A stretch of DNA of 64,000 bases from Candidatus Giovannonibacteria bacterium (GTDB lineage: Bacteria; Patescibacteriota; Minisyncoccia; JACPKW01; UBA11713), in NCBI GenBank assembly GCA_016186825.1, contig JACPKW010000001.1, positions 13,508 to 77,507 of the forward strand. The letters run 5' to 3'. Each line of letters begins with the position of its first letter. Within the stretch, counting starts at the first letter, position 1. The position numbers and the translations under genes were made by a program. The notes beneath the pieces were generated by a model. The model searched no databases, was not told the DNA's origin, and was given only the letters and a program-made list of their open reading frames with translations. Of the stretch, positions 28,197-61,898 are shown piece after piece.

Positions 28197-28199
28197 TGA

Positions 28200-32289: not shown

Positions 32290-32714
32290 GTGAGTACAAG
32301 ACTCGAGAACGTATTCACCGCGGCATAGCTGATCCGCGATTACTAGCGATTCCAGCTTCATGAGGTCGAGTTTCAGACCTCAATCCGAACTGAGCTCACC
32401 TTTGATGAGATTGGCTCCGCCTTACGGCATCGCGACCCATTGTAGTGAGCATTGTAGCATGTGTGTAGCCCAGGGCATCAGAGGGTCATGCTGACCTGGC
32501 GTCATCCCCGCCTTCCTCCCCCTATACGGAGGCAGTCTCGTCTGACACTTATAACAGACGATAAGGGTTGCGTTCGTTACCCCACTTAAGGGAACAGCTC
32601 AAGCCACGAACTGACGACGGCCATGCAACACCTGTGTAAGCGTCCTTGTGAGACATTTTTTCTTTCGAAAAAATTTCGCTTACATTTCAAGCCCTGGTGA
32701 GGTTCTTCGTTTAC

Positions 32715-32749
<35 letters not shown>

Positions 32750-32896
32750 AGTCCCCGTCTATTCCTTTGAGTTTTAATCTTGCGATCGTACTTCCCAGGC
32801 GGCAGGCTTAACGCGTTAGCTTACGGCTCCCGAAGGGTCGATACTTCGGATGCCTAGCCTGCATCGTTTAGGGCGTGGACTACAAGGGTATCTACA

Positions 32897-33593
32897 AATT
32901 TGTTGCTAACAACAAATTTGAAATTTTCAATTTTACAATTTCCAATTTTCAAAATGTTGTAGGGCAAGACATTTCTGCTTGTCTCTCTGCATCGCTGCAG
33001 AGTTCAGACTATATCATACGAGCACTTTGAGAAGCGGACGTCGTTAGACATCCGGACTTCAAAGTGCTCGCCTCGGCGTATAGTCGTTGAGGGGAATTAG
33101 ACTGGGATAAAACGACTCACCTCATAAAGGTTTCTGCCAATAACTCGATCTCCGCCAGCTTCGATGTTCTTGATAAATTCAGCCAAATCCGCTTTCGCAA
33201 GATCGTCGGACTCCTGTTCGATGCATTCAACTATGCTGCGGTTCTTGTTTTCTATATCAAGTATAGCGAGATAGTTCATTTTCTACTCCTTTCTTAATTC
33301 TTCCCTGCTGGTTATCCGCACCAAAACATTTTTACTCTTGCAAGTAGTTTTGGATACACCGGACTTTCCAGCATATAGCTCCCGCCTCGGCTCACGCCTC
33401 GACGGGATTCTCAATTTTGCAGCCAACATGCGTTGGGCAAAATTGGAACAAGTTTTTTATCCTCGTCCGCCAGTTAGCGGATTCGAGGGGACTAGTTTTC
33501 CGCCGATACCCTCGGCGGCCACTGCACAGCAGTAAAATCTCCAATTTGAAAATTGAAAATTGTAAATTGAAAATTTCGCTGCCATGCAGCGGG
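32897..33593 (-). mobile_element. intron-like insertion 2 in the 16S gene (within the GGATTA|GATACCC block, near E. coli position 788)
   Basis: About 697 bp interrupt a universally conserved block. The insertion termini carry complementary AT-rich repeats (AAATTTGAAATTTTCAATTTTACAATTTCC at 32921-32950 and GAAAATTGAAAATTGTAAATTGAAAATTTC at 33549-33578) that could pair the intron ends. Confidence 0.55.
33097..33279 (-). CDS. small acidic ORF inside 16S insertion 2, preceded by a strong SD
   Basis: 60 aa. The minus-strand upstream sequence reads GAATTAAGAAAGGAGTAGAAA-ATG, so the SD AAAGGAG lies 6 nt from the start. No recognised motif. Confidence 0.35.
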   Translation of the reverse strand: MNYLAILDIENKNRSIVECIEQESDDLAKADLAEFIKNIEAGGDRVIGRNLYEVSRFIPV

Positions 33594-33920
33594 TTAATCC
33601 TTTTTGATCCCCACGCTTTCGTGTTTCAGGGTCAGGAATGCCCCAGCAAATTGCCTTCGCCTTTGGTGTTCCCCTAGATATCAACGGATTTCACCCCTAC
33701 ACCTAGAGTTCCATTTGCCTCTGGCACCCTCCGAGCTCGGCCGTTTCCCCGCCAGCTTCAGGGTTGAGCCCTGAAATTTAAACGGAGACTAACCGTGCCC
33801 CCTACACACCCTTTACGCCCAATAAATCCGGATAACGCTCGGGCTCCTCGTCTTACCGCGGCTGCTGGCACGAGGTTAGCAAGCCCTTATTCCTGCGGTA
33901 CCGTCAGAGTTAGAGCTGTG

Positions 33921-34148
33921 AAGAGACAAGTTTTTTTCCTTTCTACTTGCCTCGTATTTTCCTTATTGGATAAGGACTATTGAAAATATATTTGGGGTTG
34001 TCATTTTTGATTCTTATGAATCTCCCAGGGACTTCATCTGATGTTGCTTCAAATTCTTTTGTAACTCTTTCCCCGGTTTTTTGATTTACCCCGCGCACTA
34101 TATACAAATAGCGCTGATATTCTCTATTTAACATTTTAAATATCTCCT
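33921..34148 (-). other. insertion of about 228 nt in the loop of the 16S V3 hairpin (helix 17), intervening-sequence-like
   Basis: Complementary stems GAGTTAGAGCTGTG (33907-33920) and CACAGCTCCAACTC (34149-34162) flank about 228 nt where E. coli has about 35 nt. Confidence 0.5.
33943..34134 (-). CDS. small basic ORF (63 aa) inside the 16S V3 insertion, preceded by an SD
   Basis: MLNREYQRYLYIVRGVNQKTGERVTKEFEATSDEVPGRFIRIKNDNPKYIFNSPYPIRKIRGK. The upstream minus-strand sequence is GTGAGGAGATATTT-ATG (GGAG 7 nt from the start). The longer ORF-track version (to 34299) runs into conserved rRNA and is rejected. Confidence 0.35.
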   Translation of the reverse strand: MLNREYQRYLYIVRGVNQKTGERVTKEFEATSDEVPGRFIRIKNDNPKYIFNSPYPIRKIRGK

Positions 34149-34626
34149 CACAGCTCCAACTCTTCTTCTCGCAGAAAAGCGGTTTACGCTCCGAAGAGCT
34201 TCTTCCCGCACGCGGCGTCGCTCGATCAGGCTTTCGCCCATTGTCGAATGTTCTTGACTGCAGCCACCCGTAGGTGTATGGACCGTGTCGCAGTTCCATT
34301 GGTGGGGATCAAGCTCTCACTTCCCCTAGCCGTCATAGCCTTGGTAGGCCATTACCCTACCAACAAGCTGATAGCCCGCAGGCCTTTCCCAGAGCCTATC
34401 GCTAGATTTACTCGGCACCTTCCAAACTTCGTGTAATTCGCTCGACACAAAGTCTCGAAGGTGCCGAGACTATCGGGAATTAGCTAACCTTTCGGCTAGT
34501 TATGCCCGTCTCTGGGGTAAGTTCCTACGTGTTACTACCCCGTCTGCCACTGAACATCTAAATCCGTCGCATTGATATAATCTCAACTCCTTCAAAAGAT
34601 GTTCCGTTCGACTTGCATGCCTTATC

Positions 34627-34666
<40 letters not shown>

Positions 34667-35068
34667 TTTGAATTGCTCACGCATTGCGCGAGCAAATTTT
34701 GAACGGGACAAAAGAGAGTAGTTATAACTTTCTTTTGTCACAAACTTTTCACCCGCTTAAGTATTGTCTTAAACAATTCCTTGCGGGTTGTGTGTCCCGA
34801 TTTTGCTTCTGCAAAGCAGAAATGCAAAATCGAGGATCCCCGATTTTCATTTATGAAAATCGGGACATGTTTTTGATATTCTTTTTTCAACGTTCTGTCG
34901 ATCTGAATATTCTCTGTAAACAAACCCGCAACTGCCTTCACATAAAAACAGTTGCGGACTTGTTTATTTTTCAAATAAATTTTTAGGGCTGTTTACATAA
35001 GTTTTCGAATTAATTCTAAGTCCAATGTCCATTATATGGTTCCTGCAAAGCTTGTCAACCGGCCGATT

Positions 35069-35773
35069 CTATCTCCTGTGAGCATCCCGCCAGAGCGCGA
35101 TTTTTTTATGATCCCCCGAAAGAAGGACTGGCGGAACCTTATACTTCCTTCCATGCCATTTTAGAACTTCAGGCCTTGTGTAATGAGGATATTCCAAGTC
35201 AGTTTTCAGTTGATAGTTTTTAGTTTTTAGTTTGGGGCCAAAACTTTCTTCAGCAAGCGATTCTTCTTTAAGCACCCCAGGAATAAGACGCACAAGCGCG
35301 GAAACAAACACCATAGCCCCGATATCACCGTCAGTCATAATATAGGGCCCGATTGAAATTTCCTCTGCGCGCAAAATTTTTTTGACGCGCTCATCAATTC
35401 CTTCATACCGTCCCGAAATTAAAATGAAGCGATTATATTTTTCAGACCAGTCATACGCAATTTTCTGGTTGAATTGTTTCCCCTTCGCCGAAAACAAAAT
35501 AATTTTTGTACGCAGCCCCACGGATTTTTTTTTTAAAGAAGAAACAGTGCGTAAAATTGGCTCGGCTTGAAGAACCATTCCTGCGCCTCCCCCAAACGGG
35601 CGGTCATCAACCTTTTTATGTTTGTCGCGTGTAAAATCTCGCAAATTCCAAATTTTAATCTCCGTTTTTTTCTTTTCTACCGCGCGCTTAATAATCGATT
35701 CTGAAAAATATGAATCAAAAATTTTCGGAAAAATTGTAATGATATCAAAACGAATTTTTGCCATGAATTTCAT
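35069..35773 (-). CDS. trmD: tRNA (guanine37-N1)-methyltransferase
   Basis: 234 aa. RFDIITIFPKIF, SPOUT-class knot motifs, GGGAGMVL and GRYEGIDER. Confidence 0.9.
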   Translation of the reverse strand: MKFMAKIRFDIITIFPKIFDSYFSESIIKRAVEKKKTEIKIWNLRDFTRDKHKKVDDRPFGGGAGMVLQAEPILRTVSSLKKKSVGLRTKIILFSAKGKQFNQKIAYDWSEKYNRFILISGRYEGIDERVKKILRAEEISIGPYIMTDGDIGAMVFVSALVRLIPGVLKEESLAEESFGPKLKTKNYQLKTDLEYPHYTRPEVLKWHGRKYKVPPVLLSGDHKKIALWRDAHRR

Positions 35774-35825
35774 TATACAGATAACTTTTTTTATTTTAAA
35801 ATTAAATTAAAAGGAGGTGGTTATT

Positions 35826-36062
35826 TTGGCTATTTTGCAAAGATTGCCCAACAGAGCGGACATTCGAAAGGCCAGAAAAAAATTCTGGGTAAGAATCACG
35901 GTTTCTGCTCTGTATCTGATAACGGGCGCGGCCCTCTTCTACTGGTCTCAACGTATCTGGGGTATTGTCGTTGGCATGATCGGTTTTTTGATATTTATCA
36001 GGTCGTTTAGATATTTACTTCGTGCTCTTGACTTCAAAAAACGCCTAATCCAGATCAGATGA
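35826..36062 (+). CDS. small membrane protein (TTG start inferred)
   Basis: ORF track starts at GTG 35817, but the SD AAGGAGGTG ends at 35819. The in-frame TTG at 35826 has proper spacing. Two TM helices. Confidence 0.4.
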   Translation: MAILQRLPNRADIRKARKKFWVRITVSALYLITGAALFYWSQRIWGIVVGMIGFLIFIRSFRYLLRALDFKKRLIQIR

Positions 36063-36086
36063 ATTGGTATTGTCCGCAAAAAAAAC

Positions 36087-36117
36087 AAAGCCGCCCGAGA
36101 AACACCCGGACGGCTTT
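36087..36117. terminator. bidirectional terminator hairpin between convergent genes
   Basis: AAAGCCGCCCG...CGGACGGCTTT with an A-run before and TTTGCTGTCTTT after. Confidence 0.5.
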
Positions 36118-36135
36118 GCTGTCTTTAAATCAAAA

Positions 36136-36453
36136 TTAAAGCTTCAAGTCTTCCATCACGCTGTCCATATTTGAGGATACTCTTGGGCCACGAGTAGAAC
36201 CTTCCGGTTCCTCGATTTTCAAGTTCACGCGCGCATGATTTTTCATGCCAACGACGCGCAAAAGCGTGCGGACGGCTTTCGCTGTGTTGCCGTTACGGCC
36301 GATTATTTTCCCCATGTCAGCCGGATTGATCTTGAGAGTCAAAAGGACTCCCATCTCATCAACCGTTCGGGAAATATTCACGTCCGACGGGTTGTCCACG
36401 AGCGACTTTACGACAAATTCCAGAAATTCCTGGTCACCGTAGTTTTCCGCCAT
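36136..36453 (-). CDS. KH-domain RNA-binding protein (KhpA/YlqC-like)
   Basis: 105 aa. The KH motif GKIIGRNGNTAKAVRTLL (GxxG loop). Standard position downstream of rpsP. Confidence 0.75.
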   Translation of the reverse strand: MAENYGDQEFLEFVVKSLVDNPSDVNISRTVDEMGVLLTLKINPADMGKIIGRNGNTAKAVRTLLRVVGMKNHARVNLKIEEPEGSTRGPRVSSNMDSVMEDLKL

Positions 36454-36563
36454 ACCAATATAATTAAACCTGTAATACTAACGTTTCGAGCAGTATTCGA
36501 CCCGATCATAATTAAACTGCTTTATTAATTATAGCAGATTTATGGGAAAATGCAAGCCTAATC

Positions 36564-36899
36564 CTATGCTTCAATTGCATCAGCTTTAGCAGCGCTTTTT
36601 GTCACGGCTTCGGCCAGTTTAACAGCTGAATTTTGATTTATGGATACGTGAATTTTCGTACCAGAAATAATTTTATTTTTAATCAAAAGGTTGTTTACTG
36701 TTGCGGAAGTTTTTGCACCTTTTGAAATCCAATATTTAATTCTTTCTAAATTAAACTGCTGTTTTTTATTTTTTGAATCATACGCTCCGACAACTTCAAT
36801 AAATTTTCCGGAACGCGGAGCATTTCGGGAATCAGTAATAACGATCCGGAATGAAGGATCGTTTCGCCTGCCCACACGCTGTAAGCGAATCATTAACAT
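36564..36899 (-). CDS. rpsP: 30S ribosomal protein S16
   Basis: The start is moved to the internal Met (MLMIRLQRVGRRNDPSFRIVITDSRNAPRSGKFIEVVGAYD), matching the S16 N-terminus MVxIRLxRxG. The ORF-track start at 36953 adds 18 hydrophobic residues that do not fit. Confidence 0.8.
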   Translation of the reverse strand: MLMIRLQRVGRRNDPSFRIVITDSRNAPRSGKFIEVVGAYDSKNKKQQFNLERIKYWISKGAKTSATVNNLLIKNKIISGTKIHVSINQNSAVKLAEAVTKSAAKADAIEA

Positions 36900-37390
36900 G
36901 AAAAGTATACTACAAGATTCAATATTAAAAATCAACACCGGCGTAAATAGCATTGGGGTTAACTGTGCGGATCATTGTGTACATGATTTAGCGCGGAACT
37001 TCCATAAACCAGTCCAAAAGTCCGTTGAAAGGCCGTCGGAGTTCCATCTTCACTTTCTCGCGCCGCAACGTGCAGGAGTAATAATAGAGGTCCAGATCAA
37101 AAATTATTTCATTCTCATAGAGCCTAATCTCTAGTGATGACCCCGGAGTGATTAGCTGCGAGAGCGCCAGAGCGTCAGGGCTTTCTCTAAACTCTCGGCT
37201 TCGAGCATAAAACCCAAACTAAAACACGTTTGAATTCCAAGCACGAAATCCTCGATGGTATCCTCGAGTCCAAGAGTAATATTTTCGTCGGATCCTCTCG
37301 CCCGAATTTCTAGAAAGATGTCCATGGTCTCTGTCTGCCACCTCAATCATACGCGATCGCGGATTATTGAAGAAATATAAAGTTTACTAA

Positions 37391-37936
37391 TCAAATCTTA
37401 AAGTGTTTCTTCAAATTAGTATCAGGAATAATAGGAGCTTCAATGTAATAAACCGACTCCGCAATATCGAAGAAATTAATGACAAAATTTATCTCATCCC
37501 GGCAAGGATACGGATACACAAAAACACTCTTTTGAAATTCCAGAAAGCCAAGATGCTTCAATTTCCGCCGAAGCGCATCGCGCGTTTTCTTTATTGACTC
37601 GGGAATATCAAAAAGTACAAGCCGCCACTTTCTGTCCCACTTCTTTTTGGGGATAAGTTTCATACTTTTGAATTGGTGTGAGAGAGAAAGAAATCTTCCA
37701 GCGTTGGTAAATTGCACTTTTTCTACTCCATCGCCCCGCTTAATCACTTCTATGGCGCCCCGAAGTTTTAGTCGCCCGAGAATCTGGTACAACTGTTTTC
37801 TATCCATTGAATACCAGACACGGTCGCTTTCTTCAAAAAGCTTTCGTCGTTCTTTTTTACTCTTAACAAAGCCTAAAAGTGTCCCAGCTGCCAGCAATTC
37901 TAAAACCTGTGTCATTAATTTCGCTTCTTGTGCCAT
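37391..37936 (-). CDS. winged-helix plus Cas2-like/PaaX-C-like domain protein (paralog A)
   Basis: 181 aa. N-terminal wHTH-like (QLYQILGRLKLRGAIEV). C-terminal KWDRKWRLVLFDIPESIKKTRDALRRKLKHLGFLEFQKSVFVYPYP...FFDIAESVYYIEA parallels Cas2 (LVLxxYDI...RRLRK...G.RVQNSVFEC...DSIRxY) and the PaaX middle domain. Paralogous to 61356-61898. Confidence 0.55.
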   Translation of the reverse strand: MAQEAKLMTQVLELLAAGTLLGFVKSKKERRKLFEESDRVWYSMDRKQLYQILGRLKLRGAIEVIKRGDGVEKVQFTNAGRFLSLSHQFKSMKLIPKKKWDRKWRLVLFDIPESIKKTRDALRRKLKHLGFLEFQKSVFVYPYPCRDEINFVINFFDIAESVYYIEAPIIPDTNLKKHFKI

Positions 37937-38021
37937 TATTTAAATTATACATCAACTACCTCATAACTGCACGATAGCGTATATTTGAGGAAATAAAAGT
38001 GATAAATAGGCTCTATAAAGA

Positions 38022-40223
38022 TTACGAAACTAGAGCGCCTGCTTCTTCAAACTTCAAAGACAAAAGTTTTGAAATTCCGTCAGAGCCCATCGTTACGCCG
38101 TAAAGCACTCCCGCACACTTCATAGTAGCGCGGTTGTGCGTGATCACGATAAGTTGAGTTGTTTTTGATAAATCTTCGAGCATCATTGCATAACGCTGCG
38201 AGTTCGCCTCATCAAGCGCCGCGTCAGTTTCGTCCAAAACCAAAAATGGCGGGGGATGAACACTAGAGAGCGCAAACAAAAGCGCAATTGACGCAAGCGC
38301 CCGCTCGCCTCCCGAGAGCATATCTAGTGAGCGAATTTTTTTCCGCGGGAGATCAACGTTAATATCAATTCCCTCTTCCTCCTTCGCTAAAACTTCGGGG
38401 GACAAGCCACCTTCTTCGAATTCAGCGCTTTCCTCTGTTTTTTTCTTGCGCATATCTCGAGAAATTATCCTAAGTGACGCCTTACCGCCACCGAACATCG
38501 TCTGGAAAAATTTTTCAAACTCCTTATTAATTTTATGAATCCCATCTTTAAAACTAGCTTCTATTTTTTCCTCTAGTTCTTTCATAACTTCCCGAAGGCT
38601 TTTGGCTGCAGCGCCCAAATCCGAAAGTTCTTTGGATAAATATTCTTGCCGGTTTGATACTTCCTGGAATTCCTTCAAAACCGCGGGATCAATTCCGCCT
38701 GCTTCTTCGAGTTTAATTTTTACCCGCTCAACTTTTTTTCTAAGCGTCTCCGACTCGCCTTCCGAACTGAACTCGAAAACCGCTCTCGGCAATTGAACCG
38801 AAATATAAGGCTTAGCTTCTTCCAATTCGCGCTTGTAATCGTCCGTCAAAATCTTTATCCGTTCCATCTCAAAATCCAACGCGCGCAGCTCGTCCTTTAA
38901 TTTTACGGCCGCGCTTTCGAGCTGATAAATTTTTCTTTCATCCTGCCGCAACTCTTCGGCCATGAAACGTGATTTTTCAAGAAAATTTTCATACTCCTTC
39001 GAAACTTTTCCTTCATCTTTTCTCATTTCATCAAGCCGCTCTTTTACGCGAGCGAGCTCCTTTTTATGCTTTTCCAGATCATTGGCAACTTTTGGCGAAG
39101 CGCCGGAAAAGCTCGAAAGAAAATCTGCAATCAGTTTTTTAATATCAGCGACTTTATCAAAAATCTTTTCAAGCGAAATCTCTTTGTTAAATTCAGAAAG
39201 CTGCTTTGAAATTTCGGAAAAAATTTGTTCAATTTCTCTTCTTGAAACAAGCTCCTTTGCCTCCGTCTTTAAATTCCGCTCTTCAAATGAAATTATCCCT
39301 TCAAGCTTTCCTAAAGCTGCACTGGCCTCGATTCTTGCTTCGCGAAGCTGTGAAAGCTTTCTTTCAAACGCAGTCAGCTCTGCCGGACGCTCGTAAACTT
39401 TCTTGTCTGCATGCTCTACTTTTTTTCGGGCTTCGGATATTTCATTCTCTATTATTTTAAGTTCTTTTTCCGGATCAAATTTCTTCCCTCGAAGTTCTGC
39501 GGTCTTTTTTTCCAGCGTTAGGAATTTTTTTGAAAGATATTCTTCAAGCAATGTTTTTAATTCCTCGCGTAATTTGGATGCGATTTCATATTTCTTTGCC
39601 TGATCGCTCAAAAATTTCAGATGCGGCTGTATCTCGCGCTGAAGAGACTGCACTTGTTTGATATTTTCTTCAGTTGAGTTGAGTTTGCGCTCGGCTTCTG
39701 CGCGCTTTATCTGATAAATTTTTAGTCCAAGCGCATCTTCAATCATCTCCTTTCGCTCTTTAGGCGATGCATACAAAATACGGTCAGCTTCGCCCTGCCC
39801 GATTATATGGTGCTGGCTCGAACCAAGACCTACGTTAGCCAAAAGCTCAATAATATCCCGAAGACGCGCTTGCGAGCCATTTAACAAATATTCATTGGCG
39901 CCGTCCCGATAAACGCGCCTGCCGATCGCAACTTCTGAAAATTCAATGGGGAATTCTTTTTTTGAATTATCAAAAACCAAAGAAACCGATGCTCTAGAAA
40001 GCCTCGGGGCATTTGCAGAACCATTGAAAATTAAATCTTCGCCGCGCTTGCCGCGGAGCGTCTTTATTGATTGCTCGCCTAAAACCCACCGGACAGAATC
40101 CGCTACATTGGATTTGCCGGACCCGTTGGGGCCAACTACTGCAGAAATTGAGTTCGGAAACTCTAATGAAACAGATTTTGCAAAAGATTTAAAACCGCTT
40201 AATTCTAGTCTTTTCAGGCGCAT
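38022..40223 (-). CDS. SMC-family ATPase, short hinge-less form
   Basis: 733 aa. SMC N-terminal head (FKSFA...VVGPNGSGKSNVADSVRWVLGEQS...IIGQG), long coiled coil, C-terminal head LSGGERALASIALLFAL...LVLDETDAALDEAN...LIVITHNRATM...LYGVTM. No glycine-rich hinge segment was seen. Confidence 0.75.
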   Translation of the reverse strand: MRLKRLELSGFKSFAKSVSLEFPNSISAVVGPNGSGKSNVADSVRWVLGEQSIKTLRGKRGEDLIFNGSANAPRLSRASVSLVFDNSKKEFPIEFSEVAIGRRVYRDGANEYLLNGSQARLRDIIELLANVGLGSSQHHIIGQGEADRILYASPKERKEMIEDALGLKIYQIKRAEAERKLNSTEENIKQVQSLQREIQPHLKFLSDQAKKYEIASKLREELKTLLEEYLSKKFLTLEKKTAELRGKKFDPEKELKIIENEISEARKKVEHADKKVYERPAELTAFERKLSQLREARIEASAALGKLEGIISFEERNLKTEAKELVSRREIEQIFSEISKQLSEFNKEISLEKIFDKVADIKKLIADFLSSFSGASPKVANDLEKHKKELARVKERLDEMRKDEGKVSKEYENFLEKSRFMAEELRQDERKIYQLESAAVKLKDELRALDFEMERIKILTDDYKRELEEAKPYISVQLPRAVFEFSSEGESETLRKKVERVKIKLEEAGGIDPAVLKEFQEVSNRQEYLSKELSDLGAAAKSLREVMKELEEKIEASFKDGIHKINKEFEKFFQTMFGGGKASLRIISRDMRKKKTEESAEFEEGGLSPEVLAKEEEGIDINVDLPRKKIRSLDMLSGGERALASIALLFALSSVHPPPFLVLDETDAALDEANSQRYAMMLEDLSKTTQLIVITHNRATMKCAGVLYGVTMGSDGISKLLSLKFEEAGALVS

Positions 40224-40323: not shown

Positions 40324-42597
40324 TCAGAGTTGTCGAGATCTAATGGCAATCTTTCTGAAAAAGTAATAGAGGAGATAGGCAGGAATTGCTAAGATTGCGC
40401 AAAGAATCCAAATTATGTTTGAGCCGCCGCCGAGTTGATGCCGAATTTTTTTCTTTTCAGAAATTTCATAAGCGAGCAAAGCAGAGCCTAAAATTGCAGT
40501 GAAAATAATCAGAAAAGGCTTGAAATAATCGCCGATTCCAGTATAGGGCACTTGGCTTAAAAAGATATGCGATGCGGGAATCAATTGGCCTTGAAGCGTC
40601 ACATTGCTTGAAGGTAGGATCGGGCCGCCTACGCCACCACCGCCACCTCCTCCGCCACCGCCGCCACCGCCACCTCCTCCGCCGCCATTTCCTCCACCGC
40701 CATTTCCTCCACCGCCATTTCCTCCACCGCCACCGCCACCTTTTTTAGCGTTGGTAAATGTGCAAGTAACGGTTTCACCGAAACTCAAATTTATCTCACT
40801 TGTGGAATTTACGTTGCTGCAATTTGAGCTCTGGTTGTAGTCCGAATTTGAATTTTCTGTCACGGAGTAGACGCCCGGATTAAGCCCCGAAAAAGTTTTG
40901 GAATTTGAGAACGCGTCAGTAGTACTGCCGTTATCATCCAACTGGAAAGTTGTGGTAGCTAGACCAAGCGCTTTTGAGAAGAAATTAAATGTAAAAGCAG
41001 TCGCGTCATCAGGATCCGTATTTTTTATAATCACAAGATTCGCTTTTTTCTTTGTATTCGTGAAAGTGCATGTTACCGTTTCGCGCTCTGAAATTTTGAT
41101 CTCTGAAACCTGGCTTCCATCACTGCAAGATGAAATCGTTTCAAATAATGAATTGGGATCTTCACTGACGGCATAAGTTCCTGGAACCAGATTCACGAAA
41201 GTTTTTGAATTGGAAAATTGATTTGAATTGTTTCCATCATCATCGAGCTGGAAAACACCCGGATTTAAATTATCGGAACGGAAAGTAAATACGGTGCTGT
41301 GATCGGGAACGGTGTCTTTAACAATTACCAGGGAACCGAAAGCAGGCGGGGCTGGAGGTTGAGGCGGTTCTTCTTCATCTGCGGGGTTTTCACCTTCCTC
41401 GCCTTCATCTTCTGCGTCATCTTCACCGACTCCATCATCATCTTCTTCTGCAACCCCGTCGTCATCCTCCTCCGCAACTCCATCATCGTCTTCGCCTGCC
41501 GCGCCATCATCATCTTCCCCCGCGGTGCCGTCATCATCTTCACCTGCTGACCCATCGTCATCGCCCCCTCCGTCATTGTCATTATCACCATCGTCATCAC
41601 CATCGTCATCACTATCGTCATCGCTATCTCCGTCATCATCGCTATCACTGTCTCCATCATCATCACCACCATCTCCATCGCCGTCTCCGTCACCACCATC
41701 TGTGCCATAGTAGCGAAGCTTAAATTCAATTTGATCACTGTTATTGGCACCAATTGTTTTCAAAGGAATCTGGAAAGTATATGTTTTGTGTTCCCATTTT
41801 ACCTTGCTTGTATATTCATAATCGCTTTTGCCCCATTCCGCATGATTGTTGTCGATTTTGAAAAATCGGACACCGCTGTCAGTTTTTATTGCAAGCTCCG
41901 CCCAGTCGCCCTCCGGATCAAGCGTGTTGTCTGAAGTCCAGTCCAGAAACAATCTTAACTTCTCGCCGCTTGTTCTAAAGTATGCATATCTCGTCGCGGC
42001 AGGATGGCTCGATGCAGGTATTGCATCGAATTTATAAACCTTGTTTTGGCCAACCTCGTAATTTAAGTATCCTTTTTCAGGCCATTCATAAGGGACGCCC
42101 TTGTAATCTTCCTCGACTCCCGTAATAAAAAGCGTTCTTCCTTTTTCAATCCACGAAAGCTCAATAGTCTTTGACAACGCATCAACAACATCATAATCGG
42201 CATGCGAAAGTTTCTTCGTTGAAATCAATTTTCCGTCAGATGCGTACTTCGCCTCGGAAGGAATTTTTCCGCCTAGCGAAACTTCATCCAGATGCGCGCT
42301 TTGAGAATTTCCATCATGCCTAATGCGGACCCGATTAGTTTCTCCCGGAAGCAGGATAGTTTTTGATGTATAGCGATCGGGGTAAGGTTGCCCCGGAAAA
42401 TTTTCATCTGCAACAAAAATCCATTCGCCGTTATTGTAAGCTTCAATAATAAATGTTCCCGCTTCTGCGCGCGCATCAAAAACTCCCGATGTGAAAACAG
42501 AATGCAGTATGCGGACCACAAAATATAAAATTACGAAAAACAAAACCGCGTTTATCTTCTTAATTGTTATAATTTTTTTATTTATTTCTTTTTCCAT
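40324..42597 (-). CDS. large cell-surface protein: beta-sandwich repeats, acidic Asp/Gly/Glu tract, poly-Gly tract, VPYTG sorting-like signal
   Basis: The start is moved to MEKEINKK (signal/TM at AVLFFVILYFVV). Two repeated modules end ...GETVTCTFTN. Low-complexity GDGDGD...DDDG...EEDDDG and (GGGGN)n tracts. The C-terminus has QVPYTG, a hydrophobic stretch and a basic patch. A sortase gene lies 1.4 kb upstream. Confidence 0.7.
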   Translation of the reverse strand: MEKEINKKIITIKKINAVLFFVILYFVVRILHSVFTSGVFDARAEAGTFIIEAYNNGEWIFVADENFPGQPYPDRYTSKTILLPGETNRVRIRHDGNSQSAHLDEVSLGGKIPSEAKYASDGKLISTKKLSHADYDVVDALSKTIELSWIEKGRTLFITGVEEDYKGVPYEWPEKGYLNYEVGQNKVYKFDAIPASSHPAATRYAYFRTSGEKLRLFLDWTSDNTLDPEGDWAELAIKTDSGVRFFKIDNNHAEWGKSDYEYTSKVKWEHKTYTFQIPLKTIGANNSDQIEFKLRYYGTDGGDGDGDGDGGDDDGDSDSDDDGDSDDDSDDDGDDDGDNDNDGGGDDDGSAGEDDDGTAGEDDDGAAGEDDDGVAEEDDDGVAEEDDDGVGEDDAEDEGEEGENPADEEEPPQPPAPPAFGSLVIVKDTVPDHSTVFTFRSDNLNPGVFQLDDDGNNSNQFSNSKTFVNLVPGTYAVSEDPNSLFETISSCSDGSQVSEIKISERETVTCTFTNTKKKANLVIIKNTDPDDATAFTFNFFSKALGLATTTFQLDDNGSTTDAFSNSKTFSGLNPGVYSVTENSNSDYNQSSNCSNVNSTSEINLSFGETVTCTFTNAKKGGGGGGGNGGGGNGGGGNGGGGGGGGGGGGGGGGGGVGGPILPSSNVTLQGQLIPASHIFLSQVPYTGIGDYFKPFLIIFTAILGSALLAYEISEKKKIRHQLGGGSNIIWILCAILAIPAYLLYYFFRKIAIRSRQL

Positions 42598-42723
42598 ATG
42601 ATTTTGGATCTGTTGATGCAGACCCTTCTTTGCCCCGAAATTTATTTCGGGATAAAGAAGGATCCGGAAGGAGAGCGCATGCACCCGCATGACTCTTCCT
42701 TCCGGAATTACGCGTCACTCGTT

Positions 42724-43938
42724 TCACTCGTTCGTAGAAAAGTGGAATCGTGAAAATTCTGTCACGACTCCACGTTCGCCCTTCGGCTCCCGAGTTTTGC
42801 CGAAAGGTCTGGACTTTAGTTTCCCTCCGCTCGGGTATCGGAGGATCCCTTTTGGCCCGTAAATTTCAAAAAACATATCATCACGAGCCCAAGACAGCGG
42901 GAACTTTAGTTCGCCCACGCCGTCGCAAACTTCGAGCGAAATAGTATTTGCTTCCGGTCCGAAACCTGAAAGCCTTTCGCGCCTGCCGTTCCGCTCAAAA
43001 ATGGAACCATGAGCGGCGTCAAAATTCGCATTTGTAAACCTCACCAGAAATTTCTGGCAAGGAAGCGAACTTAACTGCGCAATACCCTGCTTCTTTTCTT
43101 CCATGATTTTCTTGCCCAGGTTGTGGCTTTGAAAACCTGGTTTTTCATTAAGCAAGGCAGCAGTCCCGATCGGCTTCCACAAGCGTGGGAGAATACTAAA
43201 CATATCTTCCACACGTGTTGGTTCGACGGTAGACACGCCCGGAGGCGGCGGCGGGACATAGGCCTGCGAAACAGGCGGTTTCGCTGGGAAACACAGCCGC
43301 GACCAGTTGTTACAATCAAATGGATGTACCAGCCGGCAGGTTGTTCCTGCGATTGTTACATCCCACGATTCCTTGGATGCCTCAACGGCCAATTCAACAG
43401 GGACACCTAACTCCATACCGCTCCCCACCATCATCGCATCCAATTTATCGCCTCGAATCAGAGCTCCCGGGGCTCCCTCTTCGGTTTGAACTTTTTTTAG
43501 AAATTCTTTTTGGTAACCGAAGAACGGTGTGCCTTGGGCGAACAGGCATTTGATTGCCTCCTCGCGCGTCCCCTTGTAAGGGTCTCCTCGAAGAGACCTC
43601 CAAGGCTTGCCGCGAGCCACGATTTTACATGGATCCGCAACCCGCGCCTGCGCAGTTTTAACTTTTGGGGGCGGCTTCTTGGTTGCCTTGGCGGGCGGCT
43701 TCTTTACTTTCGCCGCCGCAACTTTTGCCGGCACATCACCTCCCGCACCCATCTCAACTTTTTTTTCAAATTCTTTTTTTGCCTTTTCGGCGGCTTTTAC
43801 CGCCGAGTCAGGCGCAGACTGGATCAACGGCACCTGCATGATTTCCTCCGCTCCCCAAGCGCTTTCCAGCAGCCCGAGAACTACTACCACGACTCCTGCC
43901 GCGAGGGAGGGCCAAAAAACCGAACCTGTCTCTTTCAT
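42724..43938 (-). CDS. secreted protein of unknown function (GC-rich gene)
   Basis: 404 aa. N-terminal signal-like hydrophobic segment, a Lys/Ala/Pro-rich tract (AAKVKKPPAKATKKPPPKVK), then a Cys-containing globular part. The composition is clearly GC-richer than the neighbours. Confidence 0.55.
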   Translation of the reverse strand: MKETGSVFWPSLAAGVVVVVLGLLESAWGAEEIMQVPLIQSAPDSAVKAAEKAKKEFEKKVEMGAGGDVPAKVAAAKVKKPPAKATKKPPPKVKTAQARVADPCKIVARGKPWRSLRGDPYKGTREEAIKCLFAQGTPFFGYQKEFLKKVQTEEGAPGALIRGDKLDAMMVGSGMELGVPVELAVEASKESWDVTIAGTTCRLVHPFDCNNWSRLCFPAKPPVSQAYVPPPPPGVSTVEPTRVEDMFSILPRLWKPIGTAALLNEKPGFQSHNLGKKIMEEKKQGIAQLSSLPCQKFLVRFTNANFDAAHGSIFERNGRRERLSGFGPEANTISLEVCDGVGELKFPLSWARDDMFFEIYGPKGILRYPSGGKLKSRPFGKTREPKGERGVVTEFSRFHFSTNE

Positions 43939-44038
43939 AACACCTCCAAATTTCTTAATTGAACGTTGTTTATTGACGCGTTTTTAGTTTAAAAAGAACT
44001 TCCTCCTTCCTTCCTCATCTCATTTCCAAACTGTTCAA

Positions 44039-44091
44039 TTTGTCAAACATTGTCAAACATCTGATGTCTGACAAATTTAGATGTTGGACAA
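44039..44091. promoter_or_regulatory. array of TTGTC(A/C)(A/G)ACATC half-sites (two direct, two inverted), candidate operator
   Basis: TTGTCAAACAT|TGTCAAACATC t GATGTCTGACAA ...GATGTTGGACAA. A 25-bp near-perfect palindrome with one mismatch, plus flanking half-site copies. It lies about 100 bp upstream of the 42724-43938 gene and just downstream of the sortase gene. Confidence 0.55.
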
Positions 44092-44093
44092 GC

Positions 44094-44870
44094 TTATGAA
44101 GAAGCACCCGCCGAGAGTAGAGTCGCTCCAAACGGATATCTCTTCACAAATTCCGCTTCAACAATGTAGCGTTCCTCATTTGCGCCGAAAATTTTGCAGG
44201 TTGAAAGGGTCAAAATTTTTCTGCCGTCAGTATGAAAATCAATTTCTGCGTCTTCAGCCCGCCTTATCTGCACATTTAAAACCTTGTAGGCATACTCGTA
44301 GCCGTTCGAACGCATGTAAATTGCATCGCCGTATTTCAATTCTTTTAAATTATTAAATACTATTGAATTTTTATTTCTCGGATTAAGCACGCCCGCAGAA
44401 TGCCCAAAGACAAACATGTTTCCAACTTCGCCCGGCATTACAGAGCCCGGGTAATGAACTGGGCCTTTGAGCAAACTCGCCGTTAAGTAATCCCAATCGT
44501 TTTTGATCGGAAAAACTATTTGGCTCTGCACGCCAGCCTTAGGAATTACAAGTTGAACTCCGCCCTCAAAACTTATTCGAGCATTTTCATCTTCTGGAAC
44601 TGTTTCAGATTCAGAAACTGCAGGCGATGCCTCCTCGTTATCACCTTGCGTAAATGACCCGAAAACCCACGCAACCGAATTTAAGAAAACTTCCGAAATT
44701 CCGTCTTTAAGATTGCCGCCAAAAATAGGCGTGAAAAAAATTAATGCAAAAATGCCGAGCAAAATTACAAGCCACAAACCCAAAAAACCCAAACTAAATA
44801 TCCCTTCGCTTTTTGCGCGTAAATCAGCTCGGCATCCATGTTTTTCTAAAATTTCACCTCTTTGATACAT
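44094..44870 (-). CDS. sortase-family transpeptidase
   Basis: 258 aa. N-terminal TM anchor, catalytic His in FVFGHSAG, Cys in ILTLSTCKIFG (TLxTC), downstream Arg. Confidence 0.75.
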   Translation of the reverse strand: MYQRGEILEKHGCRADLRAKSEGIFSLGFLGLWLVILLGIFALIFFTPIFGGNLKDGISEVFLNSVAWVFGSFTQGDNEEASPAVSESETVPEDENARISFEGGVQLVIPKAGVQSQIVFPIKNDWDYLTASLLKGPVHYPGSVMPGEVGNMFVFGHSAGVLNPRNKNSIVFNNLKELKYGDAIYMRSNGYEYAYKVLNVQIRRAEDAEIDFHTDGRKILTLSTCKIFGANEERYIVEAEFVKRYPFGATLLSAGASS

Positions 44871-44995
44871 AAATTCTAGGACCTAATTTATTCAATATTC
44901 ACTACATGATTTTAGGAATGTCGTCAAGGTTGACAGGTATTGACATTTATTTAGATAAATCCTAAAATACGCGAGTTAAAAATTCAATTACAACT

Positions 44996-45991
44996 ATGGA
45001 CCAAAACATAAATGCCAGGACAAATCAGTTTTATACGCGGCTTTTAATAATTCTCGCGATAGTTCTGATTTTAGTTATCACCGCAACCGCGCTCCTTTTT
45101 AAAGGCAGCGACAGATTGCGCCAACTCGGATCGTCTTTCGTTTCCCTGTTCTCGAGAAAAGTTACTGAAAAACAAGAACTGATTCTGAAAGCTGAACCAA
45201 TGCAGGTTAAGTCGGGAGAAAATTTCAGGCTTTCTTACGAACATCGCGGTAAAAAAGAAGACGGCTCTTACACTCTAAGCTTTCAATGCGCCGAAGATCT
45301 TAAATTAATGCTCGACACTGGTGAGCCAGTTTTTTGTTCGCGGCCGCTCGATCTAACTGTTGCGGAGTTGACGCTGAAAGCGTCAAGCACAAAAACAGGA
45401 TTTTCCGAATTGCCGATCAGACTTGAATTTCAAAGCGCTGCAACCTCGACCTCCGACCAGGTGATCGTCAGAATTGAAAGAGAGAGCAACAAGACAACCG
45501 GAGGAACAAATGCTCAAACTGGAACTTCAACTCCTCCGAAACAGACAACCACAAATCCACCGAAAGTGGTAGTCGGTCAGCCGAAGACAATTTATAACAA
45601 CGAACCTATCCGCGATCCGAGTCACGTTGATCTTGATTTAAAAATTATTGATCGCGGAGTTGTAAACCCCACGACTGGCGTATTTACATCAAAATCCACA
45701 GTAGCTTCGGGCGAACGAGCCGCAGTCGTTTTTGATGTTCAAAATAATGGCGGCGTGCCTTCTGGACCTTGGTTTCTTTATGCCCGCCTTCCGATATCCG
45801 ATAAGAATTTCACATCCTCCGTTCAGCCCTCGCTCAAGCCTGGCGACAAAATCAGATTCACGATGGGCTTCGGCGATCTTTTGAATTCCGGCCCGAACGA
45901 CGTTTCATTTAGCGCGAATATTCAGATCAGGCTCCTTGAATCTAATTTCATAAATAATACCGCGACAACTTCTGTAAATCGCGGCTTCTAA
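44996..45991 (+). CDS. secreted protein with a C-terminal CARDB-like beta-sandwich
   Basis: 331 aa. N-terminal TM (LLIILAIVLILVI). The C-terminal segment DLDLKIIDRGVVNP...AAVVFDVQNNGGVPSGPWFLYARL resembles CARDB. Confidence 0.45.
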   Translation: MDQNINARTNQFYTRLLIILAIVLILVITATALLFKGSDRLRQLGSSFVSLFSRKVTEKQELILKAEPMQVKSGENFRLSYEHRGKKEDGSYTLSFQCAEDLKLMLDTGEPVFCSRPLDLTVAELTLKASSTKTGFSELPIRLEFQSAATSTSDQVIVRIERESNKTTGGTNAQTGTSTPPKQTTTNPPKVVVGQPKTIYNNEPIRDPSHVDLDLKIIDRGVVNPTTGVFTSKSTVASGERAAVVFDVQNNGGVPSGPWFLYARLPISDKNFTSSVQPSLKPGDKIRFTMGFGDLLNSGPNDVSFSANIQIRLLESNFINNTATTSVNRGF

Positions 45992-46042: not shown

Positions 46043-46735
46043 TCACTCCCAGCCCTGCGCTTTTAGGCCGATTTCCGCCGCCTGCTGTTGCGCTTCCTGT
46101 TTGGACGGCCCCTCGCCTTCCCCGATTAACTTTTCTCCAATATAGACGCCCACCACGAAATGTTTGTTGTGATCGGGCCCCCATTCTTTCAGCACCTCAT
46201 ATGTCGGGGTAACGCCCGATATTTCCTGCGCGCGTTCCTGAAACAAGCTTTTTGCGTCACGGAATAATTTTTTTTCTAAGACTTCCTGCATCTTCGTAAG
46301 CAAGCTTTTTTCTATAAAATCCTTGGATACTTCGTAGCCCTGATCAAGATAAATTGCCCCGATTAAAGCCTCGAAAGCATTCGCAAGAATATACTGCCGC
46401 GCGCGCCCGACGTCTTTCGCCTCGCCGCGCGAAAGCAAAATAAAATCATTCATTCCAAGCTCGCGCGCAACTTCAGAAAGCATATTAGCGTTTACCAAGG
46501 CCGCGCGAAAGCTTGTGAGCTCGCCCTCGGGCTTATCGGGGAAAATTTTATAAAGATGCTCGGTCACAATTAATTCTAAAACAGCGTCCCCCAAAAATTC
46601 GAGTCGCTCATTTTGCCCCACATCCCATGACGGATTCTCGTTCAAATACGAACGATGCGTGAATGCCTCTTTCAAAAGCCTCGCATCTTTAAATTTAAAA
46701 TTAATTTTTTCTTCAAACTCCGACAAATCTTTCAT
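46043..46735 (-). CDS. rnc: ribonuclease III
   Basis: 230 aa. The RNase III signature ERLEFLGDAVLELIV, plus a C-terminal dsRBD. Confidence 0.85.
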   Translation of the reverse strand: MKDLSEFEEKINFKFKDARLLKEAFTHRSYLNENPSWDVGQNERLEFLGDAVLELIVTEHLYKIFPDKPEGELTSFRAALVNANMLSEVARELGMNDFILLSRGEAKDVGRARQYILANAFEALIGAIYLDQGYEVSKDFIEKSLLTKMQEVLEKKLFRDAKSLFQERAQEISGVTPTYEVLKEWGPDHNKHFVVGVYIGEKLIGEGEGPSKQEAQQQAAEIGLKAQGWE

Positions 46736-49288: not shown

Positions 49289-49294
49289 TATAAA

Positions 49295-61355: not shown

Positions 61356-61898
61356 ATGAAAGGATACGGGAAAATTTCAGGAAAAATCCTAATGCTCCTT
61401 GCAAACGGAGTCGTTTTGGGATCAACAAAAGACAAAAAGGAGCGCGAAAAAATTTTGAGAGACTCTGATCGAATCTGGATGAGTTTTGACGCAAAAGTCC
61501 TAAATAGAATACTTAGACGTTTTCAAAAAAGTGGGCTGGCGGTTCAGAGAAATGAGAATGGCCGGCATTTATTTGCAGTCACAGAAACCGGCCGCAGAAA
61601 AGCTTTAGCATATTCACTCAATGATTTAAAAATTAAAATCCCTCGGAAATGGGATAAAAGGTGGAGAATGGTACTTTTCGACATCCCTGAACCTAAGAGA
61701 AAAAAGCGCGATGCTTTAAGGGACAAAATAAAACAACTGGGTTTTCTCGAGTTTCAGAAAAGCGTTTTTGTTTTCCCATACCCCTGCGATGATGAAATTA
61801 ATTCCATTATTAATTTTTTTGATATTGCGGAGAATGTCTATTGTATTGAGGCGTCAATCAACCCAGATGCTGAGCTTAGAAAACATTTCAAAATTTGA
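61356..61898 (+). CDS. winged-helix plus Cas2-like/PaaX-C-like domain protein (paralog B)
   Basis: 180 aa. KWDKRWRMVLFDIPEPKRKKRDALRDKIKQLGFLEFQKSVFVFPYPCDDEINSIINFFDIAENVYCIEA. Co-linear with 37391-37936, and both end KHFKI. Confidence 0.55.
   Translation: MKGYGKISGKILMLLANGVVLGSTKDKKEREKILRDSDRIWMSFDAKVLNRILRRFQKSGLAVQRNENGRHLFAVTETGRRKALAYSLNDLKIKIPRKWDKRWRMVLFDIPEPKRKKRDALRDKIKQLGFLEFQKSVFVFPYPCDDEINSIINFFDIAENVYCIEASINPDAELRKHFKI

What the first reader, a model, noticed from the sequence alone, without database searches (positions are those of the whole stretch)
37391..40223. Hinge-less short SMC-family ATPase (733 aa) followed by the wHTH-Cas2-like gene
The ATPase has canonical SMC N- and C-terminal head motifs, including the SMC-specific C-terminal LYGVTM block. 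At 733 aa it has no recognisable hinge and shortened arms. It is followed 85 bp downstream, on the same strand, by the Cas2-like/PaaX-like paralog A. It could be the cell's only, minimised SMC. Alternatively it could be the ATPase of a defence-type SMC module (Lamassu or Wadjet-like systems pair SMC-like ATPases with nuclease or effector partners), with the Cas2-like protein as a partner.
Basis: inference. Interest (0 to 1): 0.5.

Follow-up and report, generated by a model that had tools for sequence, protein, structure and literature searches.

The report
Hinge-less half-length housekeeping SMC
This gene is the normal chromosome-organising SMC ATPase of a tiny Patescibacteria (CPR) bacterium, but across this lineage it has lost the hinge and about half of each arm, and the Cas2-like gene beside it is an unrelated, occasional neighbour rather than a partner.

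Summary
A 733-aa SMC ORF lies at 38022-40223(-). A 181-aa wHTH/PaaX_M (Cas2-like) ORF lies 85 bp downstream. The SMC passes NCBI's bacterial SMC equivalog model and its head matches B. subtilis Smc (E=8e-102). It has no hinge by Pfam (positive controls pass), by profile-profile comparison or in AlphaFold models, and no zinc hook. It is not an oddity of this genome. More than 280 relatives of 620-870 aa (39-63% identity, at least 150 clusters at 50% identity) lack the hinge, and head-to-head spacing is tightly kept (495±20 aa, against 941±48 in canonical SMCs). In 27 Patescibacteria loci the gene sits at the ancestral rnc-smc-rpsP-KH-trmD position, the same position that canonical hinge-bearing smc holds in Firmicutes, Actinobacteria and Chloroflexi. 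This makes it the positional ortholog of housekeeping smc. The defence-module reading fails. The PaaX-like gene follows the SMC in only 1 of 26 related loci, its relatives sit alone among other housekeeping genes, and a canonical Bacillus-type SMC scores higher on the same PADLOC models. I could not test whether ScpA/ScpB or a second SMC exist elsewhere in these genomes. It is a new variant of a known kind and moderately interesting.

The parts
38022..40223 (-). smc gene encoding a 733-aa hinge-less SMC, stop codon included
   Evidence: ORF. TIGR02168 scores 601.9 bits against a cutoff of 567. SMC_N scores 235.6 bits. The B. subtilis Smc head 5xg3 matches at E=8e-102.
39723..40223 (-). N-terminal half of the ATPase head (res 1-167), with Walker A at 31-38, R57 and Q-loop Q143
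   Evidence: Aligns without gaps to B. subtilis Smc residues 1-209. K37, R57 and Q143 are invariant in 80 relatives.
39255..39722 (-). N-terminal arm helix (res 168-323): a conserved neck (168-215), then a variable coiled coil that ends with the LGxLEG motif (304-309)
   Evidence: AlphaFold helices 168-277/280-317 and 251-277/279-323. Conservation profile. G305, E308 and G309 are at least 90% conserved.
39096..39254 (-). Apex (res 324-376): two short amphipathic helices (328-343, 351-372) in place of the hinge. It is the candidate dimerisation element.
   Evidence: AlphaFold of residues 250-460 has mean pLDDT 87.7, about 80 at the apex. No hinge by Pfam or hhalign. No Cys in the arm, and CxxC occurs in only 7 of 298 relatives. 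A conserved (V/I)PxxE(V/I)E helix start is visible in the alignment.
38493..39095 (-). C-terminal arm (res 377-577), including the SMC joint (breaks at 471-487 and 509-512; conserved LEEAGGxD at 504-511) and the neck
   Evidence: AlphaFold helices 383-470, 488-508 and 513-577. The profile alignment anchors query 489-590 to residues 965-1066 of a 1186-aa Priestia SMC. The joint is described in PMC5526789. The top Foldseek hit is the Pyrococcus Smc head plus joint, 5xei.
38025..38492 (-). C-terminal half of the ATPase head (res 578-733): signature LSGGE 636-640, Walker B D664/E665, D-loop, H696 and LYGVTM 707-712
   Evidence: Aligns to the B. subtilis Smc C-terminal head. These residues are invariant or nearly invariant in the family.
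37391..37936 (-). 181-aa wHTH plus PaaX_M (Cas2-like) gene, paralog A. It is a neighbour, not part of an SMC module.
   Evidence: PaaX_M scores 80.3 bits. It is adjacent to smc in only 1 of 26 related loci. Family members are solitary elsewhere.
61356..61898 (+). Paralog B of the PaaX_M gene (53% identity), not next to any SMC
   Evidence: tblastn. PaaX_M scores 83 bits. It is identical to P0351, 'HYW53_00435 Candidatus Giovannonibacteria bacterium'.
46043..46735 (-). rnc (RNase III), the upstream synteny anchor
   Evidence: Translation. rnc lies immediately upstream of the short smc in 18 of 22 related loci and upstream of canonical smc in 49 of 68 loci.
40324..45991 (.). Block specific to this window, inserted between rnc and smc: a 788-aa D/G-rich surface protein, a 404-aa protein, a sortase and a 331-aa protein
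   Evidence: Pfam Sortase scores 84 bits. In relatives the rnc-smc gap is 0-1437 nt and mostly under 100 nt.
35069..36953 (-). rpsP, KH-domain (KhpA-like) and trmD genes, the downstream synteny anchors
   Evidence: Translations. The same order follows smc in relatives. It also follows canonical smc, about 3 kb downstream.

Best explanation
The 733-aa protein is the housekeeping SMC of a Candidatus Giovannonibacteria (Patescibacteria/CPR) genome. It descends in place from canonical bacterial smc. It keeps a complete, selectively maintained ABC-ATPase head, the kleisin-binding neck and the joint. It has lost the hinge domain and about 150-170 residues of each arm. What remains is a coiled coil of roughly 155-200 residues per strand (about 23-27 nm) capped by two short amphipathic helices. 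Shown here: SMC identity, absence of the hinge and of a zinc hook, shortened arms with a tightly conserved length, family-wide conservation, and positional orthology. Inferred: it acts as a homodimeric, ATP-driven chromosome-organising motor like Smc-ScpAB. In this picture the two-helix apex, or rod-like arm-arm contacts together with a kleisin, replaces the hinge as the constitutive dimer contact. The 181-aa PaaX_M/Cas2-like gene downstream is a member of a large Patescibacteria family of small, solitary, probably DNA-binding proteins. It lies in a variable intergenic slot here and has no specific link to the SMC.
For: Identity:
- TIGR02168 equivalog scores above its cutoff.
- The heads match B. 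subtilis Smc at E=8e-102, with ungapped alignment of residues 1-209.
- The best structural match is the Pyrococcus Smc head plus joint.
- All ATPase motif residues are invariant in 80 relatives.

Hinge loss:
- Pfam finds no hinge in the window protein or in 13 further 670-870-aa relatives, but finds one in all 7 controls of 977-1186 aa.
- hhalign probability is below 1%.
- AlphaFold shows an all-helical centre.
- There is no CxxC.

Family:
- 119 of the 120 best hits are 702-771 aa.
- The best 150 cluster representatives at 50% identity are 623-778 aa.
- Q-loop-to-signature spacing is 495±20 aa (n=283), against 941±48 aa (n=87) in canonical SMCs.

Position:
- The order rnhB-L32-nusB/NUDIX-rnc-smc-(variable)-rpsP-KH-trmD recurs in Giovannonibacteria, Niyogibacteria (complete genome CP066691), Azambacteria, Uhrbacteria and other loci.
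- The same rnc-smc...rpsP-KH-trmD order holds canonical smc in other phyla.
- On a head-domain NJ tree the short forms group together, next to Chloroflexi SMCs.

Neck and joint:
- These regions are conserved almost as strongly as the head (column entropy 0.75-1.5, against 2.3-2.8 in the distal arm). This is consistent with retained partner binding.

Plausibility:
- In B. subtilis the hinge can be replaced by an unrelated Rad50 zinc hook, and some shortened arms remain functional (PMC5344682).

The neighbour is unrelated.
Confidence: 0.8

Rival explanations
1. Defence-type SMC module (Lamassu LmuB-like, Wadjet JetC-like or MADS mad3-like) in which the Cas2-like/PaaX-like protein is the partner or effector.
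For: PADLOC hits to mad3 (211.7 bits), LmuB (72.9 bits) and JetC (50 bits). The two genes are on the same strand, 85 nt apart. One close relative (L005) has the same pair.
Against: A canonical housekeeping Priestia SMC scores higher on the same models (mad3 257 bits, LmuB 107 bits), so these hits are generic head cross-hits. The PaaX-like gene follows the SMC in 1 of 26 related loci. Its relatives sit alone next to trpS/RNase J or inside ribosomal-protein clusters. In Giovannonibacteria genomes the locus tags of the two genes are far apart. The flanks are housekeeping genes with no nuclease or effector. No short-family member is on viral contigs.
Confidence: 0.02
2. An accessory SMC paralog. 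These genomes also keep a canonical hinge-bearing Smc-ScpAB elsewhere, and the short protein has a specialised role such as repair or tethering.
For: No complete genome was scanned. A hinge-bearing 1035-aa SMC (L109) clusters with the short clade on the head tree, and it comes from the same metagenome as a short-SMC contig (L096).
Against: The short gene, not a long one, holds the ancestral rnc-smc-rpsP slot in every Patescibacteria locus examined. It meets the SMC equivalog cutoff. L109 sits inside the short clade rather than forming a separate paralog clade. Its gatB and miaA are only 45% and 40% identical to the window's, against 59-71% for Giovannonibacteria, which points to a different lineage. 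No second SMC is in the window or its flanks.
Confidence: 0.08
3. A kleisin-independent, Rad50/RecN-like DNA tether. With the hinge lost, the protein no longer forms a tripartite ring. It dimerises only through ATP-engaged heads, or through coiled-coil tips, to bridge DNA.
For: The hinge is absent and the arms are short, as in RecN, Rad50 and the archaeal ASRP/ClsN proteins. ScpAB was not found in any held sequence. The authors of PMC12153180 raise a similar idea for ocean hinge-less SMCs.
Against: The neck, the joint and the C-terminal cap strands are conserved at head-like levels. In Smc these are the kleisin- and ParB-binding surfaces. Scores on the Rad50, RecN and ASRP models are far below their cutoffs (66 vs 1000, 39 vs 408, 50 vs 300). 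There is no zinc hook and no Mre11/SbcD neighbour.
Confidence: 0.1

Closest known systems
Bacterial Smc of the Smc-ScpAB condensin (B. subtilis Smc; TIGR02168)
   Same: The ATPase head has all motifs, including the R57 arginine finger and LYGVTM. The neck and joint are retained. The gene holds the same chromosomal position, rnc-smc-...-rpsP-trmD.
   Different: There is no hinge domain. Each arm is about 155-200 residues instead of about 340. About 450 residues are missing between the Q-loop and the signature motif. Partners ScpA and ScpB were not verified.
Engineered B. subtilis Mini-Smc and Smc(Zh) chimeras (Burmann et al. 2017, PMC5344682)
   Same: They have shortened arms or a hinge replaced by an unrelated dimerisation element, and they still support function. 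This protein is a natural counterpart.
   Different: This is a natural, lineage-wide form. Its apex is two short helices rather than a zinc hook, and its arms are shorter than most functional constructs. That paper's survey of natural SMCs was seeded with hinge alignments, so it could not have found this family.
'Hinge-less' SMC clade from ocean metagenomes assigned to Actinobacteria (Environ Microbiome 2025, PMC12153180)
   Same: A bacterial SMC-type head with an antiparallel coiled coil, no hinge and no CxxC.
   Different: The lineage differs (Patescibacteria, from groundwater and sediment). I did not test whether the two clades are related. Here genomic context shows positional orthology to housekeeping smc, which that study could not establish.
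Rad50/SbcC and archaeal ASRP/ClsN (PMC9389158)
   Same: SMC-superfamily ATPases with a coiled coil and no SMC hinge.
   Different: Those proteins dimerise through a CxxC zinc hook, which is absent here. HMM scores are far below their cutoffs. There is no Mre11/SbcD partner.
Lamassu LmuB, Wadjet JetC and MADS mad3 defence ATPases
   Same: SMC-like heads, with weak to moderate HMM cross-hits.
   Different: A canonical SMC scores higher on the same models. There are no effector or partner genes, and the neighbourhood is housekeeping.
PaaX-family regulators and Cas2 (for the downstream gene)
   Same: A PaaX_M central Cas2-like domain (80 bits) with the FDIPE...QKSVF signature, preceded by a wHTH-sized N-terminal region.
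   Different: It is 181 aa with no PaaX C-terminal domain. TIGR02277 scores 29 against a cutoff of 265, and Cas2 TIGR01573 scores 23.1 against 24.5. The window has no CRISPR array and no cas1.

Membership tests
Bacterial SMC (Smc-ScpAB; TIGR02168 SMC_prok_B) | N-terminal Walker A plus C-terminal signature/Walker B head with SMC-specific motifs, and a score above the equivalog cutoff | tested here: met
   601.9 bits against a cutoff of 567.35. SMC_N scores 235.6 bits. The B. subtilis Smc head matches at E=8e-102.
Bacterial SMC (Smc-ScpAB; TIGR02168 SMC_prok_B) | Central hinge dimerisation domain (PF06470) | tested here: not met
   No hit at E<=0.01. The controls score 38-111 bits. hhalign probability is below 1%. 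The centre is all-helical in AlphaFold.
Bacterial SMC (Smc-ScpAB; TIGR02168 SMC_prok_B) | Long antiparallel coiled-coil arms of about 340 residues (about 47-49 nm) | tested here: not met
   Arm helices span 168-323 and 377-577. Q-loop-to-signature spacing is 495±20 aa, against 941±48 aa.
Bacterial SMC (Smc-ScpAB; TIGR02168 SMC_prok_B) | Head-proximal joint interrupting the C-terminal arm helix | tested here: met
   Helix breaks at 471-487 and 509-512. Query 489-590 aligns to canonical 965-1066. The top Foldseek hit is 5xei, head plus joint.
Bacterial SMC (Smc-ScpAB; TIGR02168 SMC_prok_B) | Conserved chromosomal context (rnc upstream; rpsP-KH-trmD downstream) | tested here: met
   rnc is upstream in 18 of 22 short-SMC loci, and rpsP is downstream in 13 of 17. 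The same context holds for canonical smc.
Bacterial SMC (Smc-ScpAB; TIGR02168 SMC_prok_B) | Kleisin ScpA and kite ScpB encoded in the genome | not testable with these tools
   No ScpA motif or homolog is in the window, its flanks or any held Patescibacteria locus. A database search with a ScpA N-domain returned only Chloroflexi-like fragments. No whole genome was accessible.
Bacterial SMC (Smc-ScpAB; TIGR02168 SMC_prok_B) | Single SMC per genome | not testable with these tools
   No second SMC is in the 64-kb window or in about 14 kb of extra flank. The rest of the genome was not seen.
Lamassu (LmuB) / Wadjet (JetC) / MADS (mad3) | A specific match to the defence ATPase model that is better than a housekeeping SMC obtains | tested here: not met
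   Window protein: mad3 211.7, LmuB 72.9, JetC 50 bits. Canonical Priestia SMC: mad3 257.3, LmuB 106.7 bits.
Lamassu (LmuB) / Wadjet (JetC) / MADS (mad3) | Operon with effector or partner genes (LmuA/LmuC; JetA/B/D; mad genes) that is conserved across relatives | tested here: not met
   The neighbours are rnc, nusB, rpsP, KH and trmD. The only candidate partner is adjacent in 1 of 26 loci.
Rad50/SbcC and archaeal ASRP/ClsN | CxxC zinc hook at the coiled-coil apex, and a family HMM score above cutoff | tested here: not met
   No Cys between residues 170 and 560. CxxC occurs in 7 of 298 relatives. Rad50 models score at most 66 bits against cutoffs of 700-1087, and ASRP scores 50 against 300.
RecN | TIGR00634 equivalog score | tested here: not met
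   39.4 bits against a cutoff of 407.85, covering only the signature/Walker B stretch.
PaaX transcriptional regulator (downstream gene) | PaaX central Cas2-like domain | tested here: met
   PF20803 scores 80.3 bits against a cutoff of 24.
PaaX transcriptional regulator (downstream gene) | Full-length PaaX architecture, including the C-terminal domain (TIGR02277) | tested here: not met
   29.4 bits against a cutoff of 264.55. The protein is only 181 aa.
CRISPR Cas2 (downstream gene) | Cas2 model above cutoff, and association with cas1 or a CRISPR array | tested here: not met
   TIGR01573 scores 23.1 against a cutoff of 24.5. The window has no array-like repeats. The neighbours in relatives are housekeeping genes.

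The most novel reading that the evidence does not exclude
Most Patescibacteria (CPR) organise their chromosomes with a single, naturally hinge-less, half-length SMC. It dimerises through a previously undescribed two-helix apex, or through arm and kleisin contacts alone. This would be natural evidence that the SMC hinge and about 50-nm arms are dispensable for the core SMC function, and it would offer a minimal SMC motor for structural and single-molecule work.
Probability: 0.5. Interest if true: 0.75.

Novelty: new variant of a known kind. Interest (0 to 1): 0.55.

Why it matters
The hinge is treated as a defining part of SMC proteins: the constitutive dimer contact, a DNA-binding site and a proposed gate. 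Arm length is thought to be tuned in discrete steps. Here a very large bacterial radiation keeps the smc gene at its ancestral locus with an intact head, neck and joint, but with no hinge and with half-length arms of tightly conserved length. If this is the only SMC in these cells, the minimal requirements for SMC function are smaller than assumed. These 730-aa proteins would then be attractive minimal systems for cryo-EM and loop-extrusion assays. The result also corrects annotation. NCBI mostly labels these proteins 'AAA family ATPase' or 'hypothetical protein', and sometimes labels the unrelated PaaX_M neighbours 'Cas2'. The only natural hinge-less bacterial SMC report I found in the held literature concerns a different, ocean clade (PMC12153180).

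Full report
**Observation.** The 733-aa SMC-like gene is at 38022..40223(-). A 181-aa gene lies at 37391..37936(-), 85 nt downstream on the same strand. The larger protein carries every SMC head motif: Walker A at residues 31-38, R57, Q-loop Q143, LSGGE at 636-640, Walker B D664/E665, H696 and LYGVTM at 707-712. It scores 235.6 bits on Pfam SMC_N across residues 3-718. On NCBI's bacterial SMC equivalog TIGR02168 it scores 601.9 bits against a cutoff of 567.35. By sequence its closest solved structure is the B. subtilis Smc head (5xg3, E=8e-102), with residues 1-209 aligning without a gap. The smaller protein has a PaaX_M (Cas2-like) domain at 80.3 bits and falls just short of the Cas2 thresholds. 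A paralog with 53% identity lies at 61356..61898(+).

**The hinge is really absent.** Pfam's SMC_hinge model (PF06470) does not hit this protein at E<=0.01. It also misses 13 further relatives of 670-870 aa. It does hit all seven hinge-bearing controls of 977-1186 aa, at 38-111 bits, in the same runs. A profile of the central region, compared with a hinge profile built from 52 canonical SMCs, gives a probability below 1%. AlphaFold2 models were made of the full protein (pLDDT 79.5) and of residues 250-460 alone (pLDDT 87.7). Both show only helices between the two head halves:
- an N-terminal arm helix (168-323);
- two short helices (328-343 and 351-372);
- a C-terminal arm (377-577), interrupted at 471-487 and 509-512.

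Those interruptions, together with the conserved LEEAGGxD stretch, align to the canonical Smc joint (query 489-590 to positions 965-1066 of a 1186-aa Priestia SMC; joint described in PMC5526789). The best Foldseek match to the full model is the Pyrococcus Smc head plus joint. The arm has no cysteine, and CxxC occurs in only 7 of 298 relatives, so there is no Rad50-type zinc hook.

**This is a lineage-wide form.** All but one of the 120 best database hits (47-63% identity, full coverage; the exception is a 600-aa sequence covering 83% of the query) are 702-771 aa. They come from Giovannonibacteria, Niyogibacteria and other Patescibacteria, and none carries a precomputed hinge domain. In the library clustered at 50% identity, the best 150 representatives (39-52% identity, one truncated sequence at 54%) are all 623-778 aa. 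The arms vary greatly in sequence (column entropy 2.3-2.8), while the head, neck and joint are conserved (0.3-1.5). Despite that, the distance from the Q-loop to the signature motif is 495±20 aa in 283 short proteins, against 941±48 aa in 87 canonical ones. Arm length is therefore itself under constraint, as Burmann et al. showed for canonical SMCs (PMC5344682). Their survey was seeded with hinge alignments and so could not have seen this family.

**Genomic context settles the interpretation.** In relatives the order is rnhB - L32 - nusB/NUDIX - rnc - short smc - (variable) - rpsP - KH - trmD. It was seen in a Giovannonibacteria MAG, in the complete 837-kb Niyogibacteria genome CP066691, and in Azambacteria, Uhrbacteria and other loci from the genome and metagenome scans. 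Among 27 distinct short-SMC loci, rnc is directly upstream in 18 of 22 that have enough flank, and rpsP is downstream in 13 of 17. The same rnc-smc ... rpsP-KH-trmD arrangement holds the canonical, hinge-bearing smc in Firmicutes, Actinobacteria and Chloroflexi loci. There rnc is upstream in 49 of 68 loci, and rpsP-KH-trmD lies about 3 kb downstream. The short gene is therefore the positional ortholog of housekeeping smc. On a head-domain neighbour-joining tree (no support values) all short forms group together next to the Chloroflexi SMCs. One hinge-bearing 1035-aa protein (L109) falls among them. L109's gatB and miaA are only 45% and 40% identical to the window's, against 59-71% for Giovannonibacteria, so it probably represents another lineage that kept the hinge.

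**The defence-module idea fails.**
- The PaaX_M gene follows the SMC in only one of 26 related loci, a close relative with a 79% identical copy.
- In two other loci, distant copies sit elsewhere in the same housekeeping region.
- The family of about 180-aa proteins is widespread in Patescibacteria. Its members are solitary, next to trpS/RNase J or between ribosomal-protein operons.
- Locus tags in two Giovannonibacteria genomes place it far from the SMC.
- The PADLOC hits of the SMC (mad3 212 bits, LmuB 73, JetC 50) are exceeded by a canonical Priestia SMC (mad3 257, LmuB 107), so they are generic head cross-hits.
- Neither family is phage-borne: there is one distant PaaX_M relative and no short-SMC member in 2.9 million viral contigs.
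- The window has no CRISPR array.

**How it most likely works.**
- Shown: an intact, selectively maintained SMC ATPase with neck and joint, no hinge, half-length arms of fixed length, at the housekeeping locus.
- Inferred: it is the chromosomal SMC of these very small cells and works as an ATP-driven homodimer.
- Inferred: the strong conservation of the neck (168-215 and 545-578), the joint and the C-terminal strands means the kleisin and ParB interfaces of Smc-ScpAB are kept.
- Inferred: the constitutive dimer contact is supplied either by the two-helix apex or by rod-like arm-arm contacts together with a kleisin. The apex helices have broad hydrophobic faces, a conserved (V/I)PxxE(V/I)E start, and a nearly invariant G305-x-x-E308-G309 at the end of the N-arm.

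**What remains open.** No whole genome was accessible, so I could not show that this is the only SMC or that ScpA/ScpB exist. Searches of all held sequence, of about 14 kb of extra flank from the same genome, and one database search were uninformative. I give the accessory-paralog rival about 8% and the kleisin-independent-tether rival about 10%.

**Comparison with what is known.** The protein fails two defining features of textbook SMC, the hinge and the arm length. It meets the head, joint, equivalog-score and synteny criteria. It is best described as a hinge-less variant of bacterial Smc, not as a member of Rad50/SbcC, RecN, ASRP/ClsN, LmuB or JetC, all of which fail their tests. The held literature has one report of natural hinge-less bacterial SMCs, an ocean clade assigned to Actinobacteria, without genomic context (PMC12153180). 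Nothing was found for Patescibacteria. I therefore rate it a new variant of a known kind, of moderate to good interest for the SMC field.

Noticed in passing
window 32243-34672 (-) and 31518-31946 (-): The 16S rRNA match spans 2430 nt for a 1533-nt Rfam model, so it carries about 900 nt of insertions. A LAGLIDADG homing-endonuclease ORF (PF00961, 55 bits) lies about 300 nt beyond the 16S 3' end. No 23S rRNA was detected in the window.
   Followed up: partly
window 40324-45991: A sortase gene sits between rnc and smc, together with a 788-aa protein with long D/G-rich acidic repeats and a poly-Gly tract, a 404-aa Pro/Lys-rich protein and a 331-aa protein. In relatives these two genes are usually 0-100 nt apart. 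This looks like an inserted cell-surface cassette.
   Followed up: partly
window 37391-37936 and 61356-61898; loci L005, L086, L087, L090, L096: The roughly 180-aa wHTH+PaaX_M family is widespread in Patescibacteria. It has invariant W100, D101, R105, D110, E113, R119 and Q135-K136-S137. Its members occur as solitary genes at different intergenic slots of conserved housekeeping clusters. NCBI sometimes names them Cas2. Their function is unknown.
   Followed up: partly
window 48608-49315 (-); L001 7404-8093, L004 4876-5541: An IS200-like Y1 transposase-family gene (PF01797, 39 bits) keeps the same place between rnhB and L32 in several Giovannonibacteria relatives, with a second copy near trmD in L001. 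This may be a domesticated or REP-associated tyrosine transposase.
   Followed up: no
window 46745-47638 (-): NusB is fused to a NUDIX hydrolase domain (297 aa). The fusion is conserved in all the Patescibacteria loci examined.
   Followed up: no
window 26059-29126 (-): Three consecutive D-Ala-D-Ala ligase-like paralogs (356, 356 and 308 aa) lie in tandem.
   Followed up: no
locus L109 9992-13099: A 1035-aa SMC with a hinge (98 bits) groups inside the otherwise hinge-less Patescibacteria clade on a head-domain NJ tree. It lies in a different context (clpP, nrnA-like, rplA, miaB, miaA, gatB). It is useful for dating the hinge loss.
   Followed up: partly
window paralog B (61356-61898) versus P0351 / L088: Paralog B is 100% identical to NCBI protein HYW53_00435 of a Candidatus Giovannonibacteria MAG. 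Window proteins also recur on Logan assemblies of the SRR121134xx runs. Yet no SMC closer than 63% identity was returned for the window's SMC.
   Followed up: no
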